Shown in pieces: positions 19,001 through 22,000 of a stretch of 43,825 bases of DNA (position 1 is the first letter of the stretch; every line of letters starts with the position of its first letter). Source of the DNA: Chrysochromulina tobinii (taxonomy: Eukaryota); contig JWZX01002079.1 in NCBI GenBank assembly GCA_001275005.1, positions 1 to 43,825 of the forward strand. The letters run 5' to 3'. A program made the position numbers and the translations under genes. The notes beneath the pieces are model-generated. The model was not told the origin of the DNA, did not search any database, and saw only the letters and a program-made list of their open reading frames with translations.

Positions 19001-22000
19001 CAGCGCTTCAAGAACGCGGCCGAATATGAGGCTTCGCGCGTGAGCTACTGTAACGACATCGTGGAGCGCGAGGCGCTTGTAGAGGATGCGATCACGGGCA
19101 ACCTGCTGCGCATCAAGGACCAAACTCTCCACGTGTCGACCGCGACCGACGTGCAGGACAATGCGTCCGTCCCGCCCGAGTGGCGCGTCGATGACGTGCG
19201 CGACCTCGTTCATCTCATGCTACAGCCCTCGCCCTCGCGCAACAACGGCATGCATTCCGCACAGCCCGTGCTCGTGCGCGCCGGGCCGGGCACCGGCAAG
19301 ACGTGGATGTCGAAGCAGGCGGTGTACACGCTCGCCGATCGGCTCCGGCTCGCGGGTCAGAAGGGCATCAGTCTCGTCCCGATTGTGGTGTACGTGCAGC
19401 GCGTCGTCTTCCTCATCAGGGAGGGCTTGGGCGGCGCTCTCCTCGAACGTTACATCGAGTCCGCGTACGCTGGCAAGAAGTACGATCTGTGGCGCAAGAT
19501 GCTCGTGCAGGCCTACGAGATGCGTGCCCTCATCGTGCTCATCGACGGCGTCGACGAGGCCGCTGGGCTGCGCGACCAAATTGAGGATTTCATCCATGGG
19601 GATCTTGTGCCAAGTGGCAACCGCATTCTCGTCACTTCGCGCCCCGAAGGCGTGACACTCGTCCGCTACACCGGCCGCTTTGTGATCATGAACCTGAACG
19701 AGCTGACCAACGAGCAGCAGCGCAAGGTGATCAGCAGCATCGCGCCGCCATGTCCGCCATGGCGAGCGTCGGCCCATGGCATGCAAGCGCTCACCACGGC
19801 GCCGTGTCCCCTTCCCCCCACAGGTGATCAGCATCCAGATGCACGGCTCCGTGTTCTTCGACCACTTGCTCTCGCTCGGCGAGGTGCGCAAGCAGCTGGA
19901 CGATGCATATGCGAAGCTGCGCGAGTCGGTGCAGGGGGAGCTCGAGACTCTCTTCTCACCCAATCGGTTCCGCAAGAGCAAGGAGGAGGAGGCCGGCGCG
20001 CGCTCCTCGCGCAAAGGGCCCGGAGATGAGATCTGGGATCCGGCCGAACGCCAGCTCACCGTGAAGGGCGACCGTGTGATCGCTGAGCGAGGGGATCCTC
20101 GGTATAACAAAGCCAATAATTCCACAGCCAAGGTGGCGGCTACGGGCAGGGAGGCAGAGGAGGACGAGGAGGCTCGTCGTCGTCGTCTGTTCGAGCTGAA
20201 AGAGGCGATCGAGCTCCATTCGGTCTTTTTGAAGAATCTCGATCGGCAGCTGAACGCGTCGACACCGCAGGCGTGCGGCGTGCCTATCCTCGAGCGCCTC
20301 GATTCGGTCGTGCGTGACTGCAAGCTAGGCGTGACTGAGAAGGACTTCAAGGCGGCGGTGCTCGAGGATATGCTTGGGCCGGGAGGTGAGCTCGAGAAGG
20401 ACGAGCTCGATGGTCTCTGATTGCCACTCTGATGGACGCTGATTGCCTCCCTCATCAGGCGAGCTCGAGATGCGCCACCGTGTCGCGCTCGAGATGGGCG
20501 CGGTGCTGCTCAAAAAGAAGCGCGAAGATTTCGAGACCGCGCAGCTCAAGAAGATCAAGAAGATCAGCACAAAGACCGAGGGAGGCAAAGACGAGAAGCC
20601 GGGCTCACGCTTCAAGGCGGTGCTGCTCTCAGCCACCGTTCGCTCGAACGAGTCGGAAGCGGCCATGCCGGCGGCGGCGGTCAGTGCAGTGGAGAGGACG
20701 GCGGCGGAGCTCAAGGAGCTCAAGGAGCGCATGGCAAGACCCAGAAGCGATAGCACCGAGATCCGAGACGCCTTCTCGGGACGAGTGCTCTCGGACGCCG
20801 AGATGGAGGCTGAGGCGCGTAAGTCGAAGCTCGAGAGGAGCGCGGCCGCGCGCCTTTGGCAGAAGATCACGGCGCGCACGGATGAGCTGTACATGGTCAT
20901 TGAGAAGATGCTGAGCACCTTTGATAGCTCCATGCGGCGCCTCGCGGCCGAGGCTGGTGAAGATTCGACCCAGAGTGCGCAGCTGTCCAAGGCCGTCCAG
21001 GTCGGCGAGCTCAAATCTCACACCACCACCTCTGATGGCCTCTGAGTGCATCTCTGAGTGCATGCTGATGGCCTCCCTCATCAGGTCGGCGAGCTCAAAT
21101 CTCCTGCGCGCGCTCATTTGAAGGCGATGGAAGAGTATTCGGATCGCTTCCAAGACGGCGAGCTACCCGAGGCCTGCCTGACCGACGTATTGCGTGCCCG
21201 CATGCCCCTCGCGACGGGCCTGCAGTGCGTCGCCGTCATCACGCGCCTGCTGCAGCCGGGGGGCGTCTTGCTGGTGGATGAGTCGGCCGTTCAGGCGGCG
21301 ACCGTTAAGGCCGAAGAGGCGGACAAGGCGCGCGCGCGAAAGGGAGCCTCCTTAGCGGCGGTCACGTCGCTGGCGGCCGCGCCCGAGGCGGCGCCCATCG
21401 TCGTCGACGTAAGTAAGGCGATCAAGATCACGCTCATGAAGCTCGTCAACAAGTATGCCGAACGCGACCCCACGCACTTCCGGCAGCACACGTGCACCCT
21501 GAAGCTGCAATGGAGGGGCATGAGCGCCTACGCCGAGGTGGAGGTGCACTACGTCGAAATCATGAAGGTGGGCATCTCAAACAACTCGAGCGCGTACGAG
21601 CACTACAACTTCTTCCGCGAGAAGCTCAAGGGGACGGTGCCCGAGGGCGAGCTCGATGAGCTGCTCGAGGAGAAGCTCATCTTCCTCGTGGACGCGACCG
21701 GCATCCCCGTGCTGCTCTCGCTGCTCGTGCTCATCTTCACCTCGGGCGGCGAGGACCTGACCAAGCTGCCCTCGAACCGCATCGAGCTCTACGAGCTCGG
21801 CATCGAGTCGGCGATCAAAAAGCGGCTGCAGCGCGGCCAGGCGGCCAAGGGCGACGTCAACCCGAGTGATATGCTCATCAGGCACTGGATTCGACTCTTC
21901 AACCTCGATCGTTCGAATATGAACGTCGATGACAATCCGCAGTTCGAGCAGAAAAAGGAACGAGAGCACCGGCCGACTCGCAAGCAGGCGATGAAGTTCG

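What the first reader, a model, noticed from the sequence alone, without database searches (positions are those of the whole stretch)
19824..21600. RelA/SpoT-like nucleotidyltransferase inserted inside the NACHT module
Seen: a ~550-aa insert lies between the NACHT core (TSRP...LNELTNEQQRKVI) and the helical/winged-helix motifs (IPVLL, FKHLSFQE). It ends in GELKSPARAHLKAMEEY...ACLTDVLRARM...KLVNKY...DPTHFR...AEVEVH. Established: (p)ppGpp synthetase domains show the order K-x-x-x-x-x-x-K ... D-x-x-x-x-R ... YR ... E-x-Q. Inference: this is an alarmone-synthetase-like domain positioned to be switched by NACHT activation (second-messenger immunity), or an integrated decoy. YR to FR and ExQ to ExE changes leave activity uncertain.
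Basis: partly seen in the sequence, partly recalled or inferred. Interest (0 to 1): 0.75.

Follow-up and report, generated by a model that had tools for sequence, protein, structure and literature searches.

The report
Alarmone-synthetase-like domain inside algal NLR
A giant, transcribed immune-receptor-like gene of a haptophyte alga carries, in the middle of its NACHT switch module, a conserved domain predicted to have the fold of bacterial (p)ppGpp 'alarmone' synthetases with both catalytic acidic residues kept, so it likely transfers pyrophosphate to some nucleotide or RNA when the receptor fires, which would be a new layout for such receptors.

Summary
The window holds a spliced gene of about 4,100 codons (16019-29004, + strand). 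It matches letter for letter a 4,129-aa Chrysochromulina tobinii protein named only 'leucine rich repeat-containing'. Its order is NACHT, LRR, Roc-COR, ART. About 540 residues lie between the NACHT P-loop core (..TSRP..LNELTNEQQRK) and the IPVLLS / FKHLSFQE helices.

Sequence methods do not reach significance: no Pfam hit, hhalign E 0.2-0.7. They still give the same co-linear register.

In 92 family members the counterparts of the essential RelSeq carboxylates are kept (D34 89/92, E151 87/92). The family consensus is ExQ; ExE is fixed in the window's subclade. Acceptor-site residues are replaced.

The domain lies downstream of the NACHT P-loop in all 19 relatives where that could be checked. 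Named members are all haptophytes.

Catalysis and coupling to NACHT are inferred. The decoy reading is unlikely. This is a new variant of a known kind.

The parts
16019..29004 (+). Whole gene: N-terminal low-complexity / SH3-like region, NACHT with insert, LRRs, Roc-COR, ART
   Evidence: The 4,129-aa protein P0303 (KOO31139.1, Chrysochromulina tobinii, on a contig of 43,825 nt, the length of the window) maps exactly to 16019-16885, 17048-19735, 19833-20414, 20461-21018, 21103-27480 and 27688-29001. The boundaries are blurred by direct repeats.
19238..19726 (+). NACHT P-loop core: GPGTGKT, LIVLIDGVDE, ILVTSRP, LNELTNEQQRK
   Evidence: Pfam NACHT hit E=2.2e-4, 21.6 bits, below the 26.7-bit cut-off, on P0001 residues 1098-1252. 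Relatives exceed the cut-off. The motifs were read.
19727..19823 (+). Intron 1 (97 nt, GT..AG), flanked by the direct repeat GTGATCAGCA
   Evidence: RNA contigs stop at 19736 and start at 19822, but no joint was listed.
19824..20385 (+). Exon: conserved first helices after the core (VISIQMHGSVFFDHLLSLGEVRKQLDDAYAKL), then a poorly conserved spacer
   Evidence: Conservation profile: 74-79 homologues cover P0303 residues 1181-1220, falling to 7-20 in 1281-1380.
20386..20458 (+). Intron 2 (73 nt, GT..AG), introner-like
   Evidence: RNA-library contigs of X3 and X4 join across it. The annotation uses a 46-nt version instead.
20459..20823 (+). Charged, poorly conserved spacer
   Evidence: 5-19 of 173 homologues align here. 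No Pfam family reaches significance (best is DUF6437 at E 0.042, 14.2 bits, below its 27-bit cut-off).
20824..21000 (+). N-terminal helices of the RelA/SpoT-like domain (SKLERSAAARLWQKITARTDELYMVIEKML...)
   Evidence: Conservation resumes here: 74-104 homologues. tblastn HSPs of P0004/5/6 start at 20821-20845. That this part corresponds to the N-terminal helices of small alarmone synthetases is inferred; it was not modelled.
21001..21084 (+). Intron 3 (84 nt, GT..AG), introner-like, flanked by an 18-nt direct repeat GTCGGCGAGCTCAAATCT. It splits the domain.
   Evidence: A contig of run X2 joins 20997>21082.
21085..21687 (+). Core of the RelA/SpoT-synthetase-like domain. Marker residues: K5 (21097), R9, K13 (21121), D34VLRAR39 (21184-21201), a variable linker of about 50 aa, N122KYAERDPTHFR133 (21448-21483), E151VEVH155 (21535-21549), H173YNFFR178 (21601-21618).
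   Evidence: AF2 models; fold searches; family conservation.
21688..21807 (+). Resumption of the NACHT helical domain: ..GIPVLLSLLVLIF.. (GxP-type motif)
   Evidence: P208, V209, L210, L211 and S212 are conserved in 77-89 of 92 members. Assignment to helical domain 1 rests on recalled knowledge of NACHT modules.
22288..22707 (+). Winged-helix part with FKHLSFQE (22486-22509)
   Evidence: Conserved block at P0303 residues 1961-2100. The motif was checked. The conserved WHD histidine of NACHT modules is described in Kibby et al. (passages).
22720..25400 (+). Leucine-rich repeats
   Evidence: Pfam LRR_8 E=4.1e-17, plus LRR_6 and LRR_4.
25516..27228 (+). Roc GTPase (25516-25905) and COR-B (26863-27228)
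   Evidence: Pfam Roc 35.2 bits (cut-off 27). COR-B 24.4 bits (cut-off 27).
28294..28990 (+). C-terminal ADP-ribosyltransferase-like domain
   Evidence: Pfam ART PF01129 E=5.5e-6, 26.3 bits (cut-off 22.3), core at 28294-28470. ADPrib_exo_Tox is weak, E 0.046.

Best explanation
A conserved domain that is predicted to have the RelA/SpoT (p)ppGpp-synthetase fold is built into the NACHT module of a giant, transcribed Chrysochromulina NLR-like gene. It is likely a working pyrophosphokinase (or at least a nucleotide-binding site) whose activity would be gated by NACHT activation.

Shown here:
- the position of the domain between the P-loop core and the GxP and winged-helix helices;
- its splicing into the same reading frame as the rest of the gene;
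- its conservation in a large haptophyte NLR family;
- the fold match;
- the retention of the two carboxylates that are essential in RelSeq, two of the three ATP-phosphate lysine/arginine positions, and the aromatic residue that stacks on the acceptor.

Inferred:
- ATP is the pyrophosphate donor.
- The acceptor is not GDP/GTP, because the counterparts of RelSeq Tyr299, Lys304 and His312 are Lys, Asp and an aliphatic residue. Candidates are an adenine nucleotide (as for Tas1 and FaRel) or the 3' end of tRNA (as for FaRel2 and CapRel).
- Because the domain rides on the NBD/helical-domain-1 unit, oligomerisation of the NACHT would bring the copies together or uncover them. The result would be a nucleotide signal or a translation stop.

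The protein also carries a C-terminal ART domain, so the inserted domain may be one of two outputs, or a regulator of the switch.
For: Fold.
- AF2 model 2 was built from 50 sequences (pLDDT 85.4, pTM 0.69). Its element order is helix, strand, helix, strand, linker helix, three strands, helices.
- In Foldseek all listed rows to rank 32 are RSH synthetases, with probability 0.89-1.00 and 196-229 aligned columns.
- The shallower model 1 gave the same families: top 9 in VIA and ranks 1-14 in Foldseek.

Sequence register.
- HMMER with the family profile against PDB sequences lists YwaC/SAS2 (6fgk_A) second of 5, at E 0.093.
- hhalign at low stringency gives the same alignment: K5..K13 against RxKxxxSxxxK, D34xxRxR39 against DxxGxR, N122KF..DPTHF132R133 against DYIxxPKxNGY(R/Q)S, E151xQ153xH against ExQxRT, and H173Y..FR against HxxYK.

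Conservation in 92 members: D34 89/92; E151 87/92; both together 85/92; K5 77; R9 74; K13 80; R37 83; R39 78; F132 80 (plus 3 Y); R133 91; H155 74; H173 76; R178 87.

What these positions do in known enzymes.
- RelSeq Asp264 and Glu323 are the essential carboxylates; D264G and E323Q abolish synthesis (PMC13299517, passages).
- FaRel2 D90G and Y128A abolish tRNA pyrophosphorylation (10.1101/2021.04.30.441581, passages).

Context.
- In 19 of 41 long relatives scanned, a NACHT, NPHP3_N or AAA hit is present. In all 19 it lies 159-342 aa upstream of the domain.
- The domain always runs straight into PVLLS.

Expression. RNA-library contigs carry the exons with introns 2 and 3 removed.
Against: - No sequence method reaches significance. 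Pfam RelA_SpoT matches 0 of 18 members at E<=10. hhalign against RelA/SpoT profiles gives E 0.16-0.73 and probability below 1%. Those RSH profiles were narrow: long RSHs, mostly proteobacterial.
- The PDB sequence hit to YwaC (E 0.093) sits beside an unrelated thioredoxin-like protein at E 0.082.
- Foldseek E-values are only 6e-4 to 6e-2 and TM-scores 0.29-0.47.
- The first Arg of the RxK motif is not conserved (P, E, D or G at position 3). The counterparts of RelSeq Tyr299, Lys304 and His312 are changed.
- Residue equivalences come from sub-threshold alignments, not from superposed coordinates.
- The protein already has a recognisable effector (ART), so the insert need not be an output.
- No activity, ligand or oligomer was shown.
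Confidence: 0.5

Rival explanations
1. Pseudoenzyme or regulatory module. The domain has the RSH fold but no longer catalyses transfer. It would bind a nucleotide (its own ligand, or a pathogen- or stress-derived alarmone) or simply serve as a structural or oligomerisation element that tunes the NACHT switch. The ART domain would be the real output.
For: - The acceptor-site residues differ from all characterised synthetases, and the first Syn1 Arg is missing.
- There is no Pfam match.
- The domain is wedged next to the GxP helix of the NACHT nucleotide pocket.
- A separate ART effector exists in the same protein.
- Relatives carry varied C-terminal parts (LRR, EF-hand, Roc) while the insert stays the same. 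That pattern fits an integral part of the switch.
Against: Both catalytic carboxylates are kept together in 85 of 92 members, along with the basic and aromatic residues around them. Pseudoenzymes usually lose these residues.
Confidence: 0.3
2. Integrated decoy. The domain is a copy of a host RSH-type protein that baits a pathogen effector, and it has no activity of its own.
For: NLRs of plants carry integrated decoys (recalled knowledge). Nothing from my calls points to it specifically.
Against: - The domain occupies one fixed position inside the NACHT module in the whole family: 194 representatives and 19 of 19 checkable relatives. It is not a variable terminal add-on.
- It is too divergent from canonical RSHs to match their Pfam model.
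- Its active-site residues are conserved.
Confidence: 0.07
3. Not related to RSH at all. It would be a lineage-specific alpha/beta insert whose model resembles the nucleotidyltransferase fold by convergence or by model bias, and the motif resemblance would be chance.
Against: - Two models built from different alignments give the same topology.
- Twelve of the top 12 chains out of 48,161 belong to one superfamily, followed by a gap to unrelated helix matches.
- An independent sequence-only search picks the same protein, 6fgk, in the same register.
- Five motifs are co-linear and the catalytic D and E are conserved.
Confidence: 0.08

Closest known systems
Small alarmone synthetases RelQ/SAS1, RelP/SAS2 (YwaC) and the synthetase domain of long RSHs (RelA, Rel, SpoT)
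   Same: - Size of the compact family version, about 170-180 aa.
- Co-linear motifs, including the two essential carboxylates, two ATP-phosphate lysines, the D-x4-R strand, the stacking aromatic followed by Arg (YwaC has GYRS), and E-x-Q in most family members.
   Different: - Does not match PF04607.
- The first Arg of RxK is absent.
- The counterparts of RelSeq Tyr299, Lys304 and His312 are Lys, Asp and an aliphatic residue.
- A linker of about 50 aa in the window's subclade.
- Embedded in a eukaryotic NACHT protein, not free-standing or ribosome-associated.
Toxic SAS enzymes used in conflict: FaRel2 and CapRel (tRNA 3'-CCA pyrophosphokinases), FaRel and Tas1 ((pp)pApp synthetases)
   Same: - An RSH domain used as a growth-arrest or killing output of an immune or conflict system, with acceptors other than GDP/GTP (abstracts of PMC11782079 and PMC9712102 in the listing; passages of 10.1101/2021.04.30.441581).
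- CapRel fuses sensor and enzyme in one chain (recalled).
   Different: - Those enzymes are bacterial or phage-borne, small, and controlled by antitoxin domains.
- Here the control element would be a STAND ATPase in a eukaryote.
- No activity is known for the haptophyte domain.
Fungal NLRs with an N-terminal RelA_SpoT domain; bacterial NACHT proteins with alarmone-synthetase effectors
   Same: - Combination of an RSH-type domain with a NACHT NTPase in one immune-type protein.
- RelA_SpoT is one of eight canonical N-terminal domains of Sordariales NLRs, and 14 (82%) of those are on T-NACHT (10.1101/2024.11.26.625400, passages).
- PF04607 is listed among fungal NLR effector profiles (10.1101/2022.03.16.484565, passages).
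- 'Alarmone synthetases' are listed among bacterial NACHT effector domains (10.1101/2022.07.19.500537, Supplementary Discussion passage).
   Different: - There the domain is terminal (N-terminal, sometimes extreme C-terminal) and Pfam-detectable.
- Here it is internal, between the P-loop core and the GxP and winged-helix parts of the NACHT module itself, and it is cryptic to Pfam.
- I could not see the supplementary tables of those preprints, which may hold other architectures.
Roco proteins (LRR-Roc-COR) and NLRC-type NACHT-LRR proteins
   Same: LRR, Roc and COR-B hits and a NACHT core in one chain. One relative is named 'protein nlrc3' by its source.
   Different: A NACHT and a Roc-COR GTPase together with an ART domain and an RSH-like insert is not the layout of either family.

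Membership tests
RelA/SpoT homologue synthetase domain (Pfam PF04607 RelA_SpoT) | Matches the Pfam model at or above its gathering score | tested here: not met
   0 of 18 family members, including the window, match at E<=10. The window segment alone and longer pieces also give no hit. None of 41 long relatives has the family at E<=0.001.
RelA/SpoT homologue synthetase domain (Pfam PF04607 RelA_SpoT) | RSH synthetase alpha/beta fold | tested here: met
   [not shown]
RelA/SpoT homologue synthetase domain (Pfam PF04607 RelA_SpoT) | Significant profile-profile or profile-sequence similarity | tested here: not met
   hhalign E 0.16, 0.7 and 0.21 against RelA/SpoT profiles of limited diversity. hmmsearch against PDB sequences gives YwaC at E 0.093. 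No SAS-rich profile was available to me.
RelA/SpoT homologue synthetase domain (Pfam PF04607 RelA_SpoT) | Two catalytically essential carboxylates (RelSeq Asp264 in DxxGxR, Glu323 in ExQ) | tested here: met
   D34 is kept in 89/92 members, E151 in 87/92, and both together in 85/92; the window has both. The equivalence comes from the shared register and from strand order, not from superposed coordinates. The roles of these residues are from PMC13299517.
RelA/SpoT homologue synthetase domain (Pfam PF04607 RelA_SpoT) | ATP-phosphate motif R-x-K-x3-S-x3-K | tested here: inconclusive
   K5 (77/92) and K13 (80/92) are kept with the same K-x7-K spacing as E. coli RelA/SpoT. The Arg position is P, E, D or G, and Ser is replaced by R9 (74/92).
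RelA/SpoT homologue synthetase domain (Pfam PF04607 RelA_SpoT) | GDP/GTP acceptor site (K-D-Y-I-x-x-P-K-x-N-G-Y-[RQ]-S-x-H) | tested here: not met
   The aromatic and Arg are kept: F132 80/92, R133 91/92. The counterparts of Tyr299, Lys304 and His312 are K123, D128 (73/92) and an aliphatic residue.
RelA/SpoT homologue synthetase domain (Pfam PF04607 RelA_SpoT) | Pyrophosphokinase activity | not testable with these tools
   Needs biochemistry.
NACHT NTPase / NLR | Walker A, Walker B, sensor-1 TSRP, GxP-type helix and WHD histidine motif; Pfam PF05729 | tested here: inconclusive
   The motifs GPGTGKT, LIVLIDGVDE, ILVTSRP, IPVLLS and FKHLSFQE are read directly. The window's own Pfam score is 21.6 bits, below the 26.7-bit cut-off. 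Relatives score 26.8-36.4 bits.
NLR with terminal RSH effector (fungal RelA_SpoT-NACHT, bacterial NACHT-alarmone synthetase) | RSH domain at the N-terminus (or extreme C-terminus) of the NACHT protein | tested here: not met
   The domain lies 159-342 aa downstream of the P-loop hit and directly upstream of the PVLLS helix in 19 of 19 checkable relatives and in the window.
toxSAS toxin-antitoxin or fused CapRel systems | Cognate antitoxin gene or domain; tRNA or adenine-nucleotide pyrophosphorylation | not tested
   [not shown]
Roco (Roc-COR) GTPases | Roc GTPase followed by COR | tested here: met
   Roc scores 35.2 bits against a cut-off of 27. COR-B scores 24.4 bits, just under its cut-off of 27.
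R-S-E type ADP-ribosyltransferases (Pfam ART PF01129) | Pfam match above cut-off | tested here: met
   26.3 bits against a cut-off of 22.3, E=5.5e-6. Catalytic residues were not examined.

The most novel reading that the evidence does not exclude
Haptophyte algae have an NLR family whose NACHT module contains its own alarmone-synthetase-type enzyme. On sensing a virus, the oligomerised receptor pyrophosphorylates an adenine nucleotide (possibly even the one held by the NACHT pocket next to it) or the CCA end of tRNA. That would be a eukaryotic counterpart of CapRel/toxSAS abortive infection, and a cytosolic 'magic spot'-type signal in a eukaryote.
Probability: 0.3. Interest if true: 0.85.

Novelty: new variant of a known kind. 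Interest (0 to 1): 0.62.

Why it matters
RSH enzymes fused to NACHT proteins are known only as terminal effector domains in fungi and bacteria. Here an RSH-fold domain that Pfam does not detect is part of the switch module itself. It is found in a large receptor family of ecologically important bloom-forming algae (Chrysochromulina, Prymnesium, Haptolina), whose antiviral mechanisms are almost unknown.

If it is active, it would show that pyrophosphokinase-based growth arrest or nucleotide signalling, a theme of bacterial anti-phage defence, also operates in eukaryotic NLRs. It would also give a directly testable enzyme, with obvious controls in D34 and E151 mutants.

It further shows that domain insertions inside the NOD module can hide from profile-based NLR surveys.

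Tried and rejected
- Pfam on the segment, on longer pieces and on the two upstream exons at E<=10 gave nothing relevant. Pfam on 18 members gave only scattered single hits.
- phmmer and hmmsearch against PDB sequences with the window segment and with A1 gave only chance-level hits: a methyltransferase at E 1.3 and Rsd at E 0.8.
- hhalign of the family against RelA/SpoT profiles was not significant. My RSH profiles came from E. coli relA and spoT, 80 genome loci that were all gammaproteobacterial-type RelA, and 120 mostly fragmentary long RSHs. I could not obtain SAS sequences, so a SAS-rich profile was not tried.
- ESM Atlas: 1 of 30 nearest clusters carries RelA_SpoT (on 24% of its members, rank 29, score 0.90), and recognition was 2036, below the 2300 mark. 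That is a weak lead only. Further Atlas tries did not complete.
- Complex prediction with two copies of the domain gave no answer (score 0.00, the alignment was not used, and the partner's own fold was uncertain). This is no evidence either way.
- The genome search 'own': no genome is held for the window, so paralogue counts in the genome were not possible.
- The search of earlier findings by place and by sequence found nothing.
- Literature searches for an RSH-like domain inside a NACHT or in haptophyte NLRs found only terminal RelA_SpoT domains in fungi and bacteria, and a paper noting NACHT, LRR and TIR genes highly transcribed in virus-recovered Gephyrocapsa huxleyi (PMC12489294, passages).
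- I considered that PF27087, precomputed on most relatives, might be this domain. I rejected that because P0007, P0011 and P0018 contain the domain but lack PF27087. That family is not in the local Pfam copy, and I do not know what it is.
- RNA contigs gave no joint for intron 1.
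Full report
What is there.

The window has about 64% G+C and behaves as eukaryotic DNA. Long open frames on the + strand are interrupted by short GT..AG stretches. Around the finding the frame ending ..ILVTSRPEGVTLVRYTGRFVIMNLNELTNEQQRK stops being sensible at 19726. It resumes in another frame at 19824 (VISIQMHG..), again at 20459, and again at 21085 (VGELKSPARAHLKAMEEY..). From there it runs open to 29004.

Four kinds of evidence support this splicing:
- Relatives found in the protein database align to the window exon by exon and skip the intervening stretches (tblastn of P0004, P0005 and P0006).
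- A 4,129-aa protein, KOO31139.1, 'leucine rich repeat-containing protein [Chrysochromulina tobinii]', lies on a contig of 43,825 nt, the length of the window. It maps letter for letter onto 16019-29001 in six blocks.
- Contigs assembled from RNA libraries join 20383>20457 (73 nt removed, GT..AG; runs X3 and X4) and 20997>21082 (84 nt removed; run X2).
- For the first intron no joint was listed. RNA contigs merely end at 19736 and begin at 19822.

The RNA contigs favour a 73-nt intron 2. The database protein implies a 46-nt one, which adds nine residues.

Architecture.

Pfam finds the following:
- a weak NACHT match on the P-loop core, 21.6 bits, under the cut-off of 26.7;
- LRRs, Roc (35.2 bits) and COR-B (24.4 bits) downstream;
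- an ART ADP-ribosyltransferase match at the C-terminus, 26.3 bits against a cut-off of 22.3.

The NACHT motifs can be read directly: GPGTGKT, LIVLIDGVDE and ILVTSRP before the insert; GIPVLLSLLVLIF and YQFKHLSFQEGLFAQH after it. From recalled knowledge of NACHT modules, the latter two are the GxP-type helix of helical domain 1 and the winged-helix histidine motif. The conserved WHD histidine is described in Kibby et al. (passages).

A conservation profile over 173 relatives divides the insert, in P0303 numbering:
- 1181-1220: conserved first helices;
- about 1281-1500: a spacer that only 5-20 relatives align to;
- 1501-1760: a strongly conserved block (74-150 relatives) that runs without a break into the PVLLS helix;
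- 1801-1960: a second weakly conserved spacer, before the winged helix.

In window coordinates the conserved block is 20824-21000 plus 21085-21687, so intron 3 splits it.

What the conserved block is.

Sequence searches are silent:
- no Pfam family at E<=10 for the window segment or for any of 18 aligned members;
- no significant PDB sequence match.

The block defines a family of its own:
- 27 long relatives in the word-indexed search;
- 194 cluster representatives at E<=0.001 in the exhaustive search, of which 72 at E<=1e-10;
- most members have a compact version of 170-180 aa, lacking the linker of about 50 aa found in the window's subclade.

I modelled window:21085-21720 twice:
- with 18 sequences: pLDDT 71;
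- with 50 sequences: pLDDT 85.4, pTM 0.69.

Both models have the same alpha/beta order of elements, not a helical bundle.

Structure searches agree with each other:
- Foldseek lists only RSH synthetases down to rank 32, with probability 0.89-1.00 and 196-229 aligned columns. Its E-values are 6e-4 to 6e-2 and TM-scores 0.29-0.47. The first unrelated row is at rank 34.
- The shallower model had already given the same families.

Independently of any model, an HMM of the 50-sequence alignment searched against PDB sequences lists YwaC (6fgk_A) second of five, at E 0.093. That is next to an unrelated thioredoxin-like protein at E 0.082, so on its own it is noise level. It is the same protein, and the same register, as the structural hits.

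Profile-profile comparison with RelA/SpoT alignments that I built was not significant: E 0.16, 0.7 and 0.21. The low-stringency alignment again gave the same co-linear register. I conclude that the fold assignment is well supported. Homology is likely but is not demonstrated by sequence statistics.

Active-site reading.

In the shared register the family consensus from 92 members lines up with the motifs invariant between E. coli RelA and SpoT and seen in YwaC:

| Family consensus | RSH motif |
|---|---|
| L-K5-D-P-V-R9-x-H-E-K13-A | R-x-K-H-x-Y-S-I-x-x-K |
| D34-V-L-R37-A-R39 | D-x-x-(A/G)-x-R |
| K-N122-K-F-x-x-L-D128-P-T-H131-F132-R133 | K-D-Y-I-x-x-P-K-x-N-G-Y-(R/Q)-S-x-H |
| E151-V-Q153-V-H155 | E-x-Q-x-R-T |
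| H173-Y-x-F-F-R178 | H-x-x-Y-K |

The roles of these residues in known enzymes:
- RelSeq Asp264 and Glu323 are the catalytically essential carboxylates. D264G and E323Q abolish synthesis.
- Arg241, Lys243, Ser247, Lys251, Lys297, Tyr299, Lys304, His312 and Gln325 contact pppGpp (PMC13299517, passages).
- In FaRel2 the equivalent Asp (D90) and the stacking Tyr (Y128) are required for tRNA pyrophosphorylation (10.1101/2021.04.30.441581, passages).

In the haptophyte family:
- The Asp is kept in 89 of 92 members, the Glu in 87 of 92, and both together in 85 of 92.
- The two lysines are kept in 77 and 80 members.
- The aromatic is F in 80 members and Y in 3.
- The Arg after the aromatic is kept in 91 of 92.

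The window has all of these.

Q153 is the majority state (61 Q, 30 E). In a quick maximum-likelihood tree the window lies in a clade with SH-aLRT 96 of 25 rows, all with E (midpoint root only, and the careful search did not finish).

Against an ordinary (p)ppGpp synthetase:
- the first Arg of RxK is not conserved;
- the counterparts of Tyr299, Lys304 and His312 are Lys, Asp (73/92) and an aliphatic residue.

I therefore expect, as an inference, ATP as the donor and an acceptor other than GDP/GTP.

Context in relatives.

Of 41 relatives of 600 aa or more scanned with Pfam, 19 have a NACHT, NPHP3_N or AAA hit. In all 19 it lies upstream of the RSH-like block, by 159-342 aa. The other 22 gave no P-loop hit; many are gene-call fragments that start in or just before the domain. 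None has PF04607. The downstream parts vary (LRR types, EF-hands, Roc, a decapeptide repeat), while the insert and the PVLLS helix stay constant.

The named members are Chrysochromulina tobinii, C. parva, Prymnesium parvum and Haptolina brevifila, all haptophytes. One cluster member is labelled as an Asgard-archaeal MAG; I take that as a probable binning error.

How it most likely works.

Shown: the position, conservation, fold, retained catalytic constellation and transcription of the domain.

Inferred:
- The domain is carried on the NBD/helical-domain-1 unit, which is the unit that packs side by side when STAND ATPases oligomerise (recalled knowledge).
- Receptor activation would therefore cluster or unmask the RSH-like sites and switch on pyrophosphate transfer.
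- The outcome would be either a nucleotide signal or a block of translation, as in toxSAS systems.

The main rival is a non-catalytic, nucleotide-binding or structural role in the switch, with the C-terminal ART domain as the effector. The decoy idea fits poorly with a fixed internal position and conserved catalytic residues.

A test of self-association with complex prediction gave no answer (listed under tried and rejected).

Comparison with what is known.

[quoted passage not shown] Alarmone synthetases are listed among effector domains of bacterial NACHT proteins (10.1101/2022.07.19.500537, Supplementary Discussion passage). So the pairing of RSH with NACHT is a known kind.

What differs here:
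- the placement inside the NACHT module;
- the divergence beyond Pfam's reach;
- the altered acceptor site;
- the host, a family of haptophyte NLR-like giants that also carry Roc-COR and ART.

My four literature searches found no description of this. I could not see the supplementary tables of the bioRxiv preprints, which may list further architectures.

Verdict.

This is a new variant of a known kind, of moderate to high interest.

Noticed in passing
window 20386-20458, 21001-21084, 37219-37315 (also 19727-19823): Three short introns share the 3' end GAT(T/G)(G/A)CCTCCCTCATCAG (3 matches against 0.02 expected by chance) and internal CTCTGATG repeats. Each is flanked by a direct repeat of the exon sequence (11, 18 and 28 nt) that supplies the 5' GT. 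Intron 1 has a 10-nt repeat but a different body. RNA-contig depth jumps to 128-383 over 21006-21079, as expected of a multi-copy element. Introners of Chrysochromulina sp. described in print have 4-bp duplications and carry the 5' splice site (10.1101/2022.06.06.494994, passages), so this looks like a different introner family.
   Followed up: partly
window 20386-20458: The database protein (P0303) implies a 46-nt intron (20413-20458). RNA-library contigs of two runs show a 73-nt intron (20386-20458). The annotated protein therefore probably carries nine extra residues (ELEKDELDG).
   Followed up: partly
window 28000-29001: C-terminal NAD:arginine ADP-ribosyltransferase-like domain (Pfam ART, 26.3 bits, above cut-off) at the end of the same NACHT-LRR-Roc-COR protein. 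This is a second candidate effector in the protein.
   Followed up: partly
window 2816-5902 (-) and 5765-13252 (+): Two large dynamin-family GTPase genes lie directly upstream. One has DUF7605 and the other an FHA domain. They are possibly another pair of conflict-related GTPases next to the NLR.
   Followed up: no
window 21672-21800: RNA-contig depth rises to 60-150 over the PVLLSLLVLIF-coding stretch, against about 8-25 elsewhere in the gene. This fits many expressed paralogues sharing that near-invariant helix.
   Followed up: no
protein cluster of P0054: One member of a family cluster is labelled 'NACHT domain-containing protein, partial [Promethearchaeia archaeon]' (a MAG). It is probably a haptophyte contig binned into an archaeal genome, but this was not checked.
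   Followed up: no
relatives P0003-P0029: Most relatives carry a precomputed Pfam family PF27087 that is absent from the local Pfam copy. Its identity and position are unknown to me. It is not the RSH-like block, since P0007, P0011 and P0018 have the block but not the family.
   Followed up: partly
window 16019-18900: The N-terminal third of the protein is low-complexity. It contains several repeated units of about 60 aa of the type 'PKPLL(A/V)R.EFDL.S..(V/L)G.(L/I).PGT.V.VLE' ending in GWV(T/S), with a weak bacterial SH3_3 hit (E 1.4e-4, below cut-off). It may be a repeated SH3-like sensor or adaptor region.
   Followed up: no
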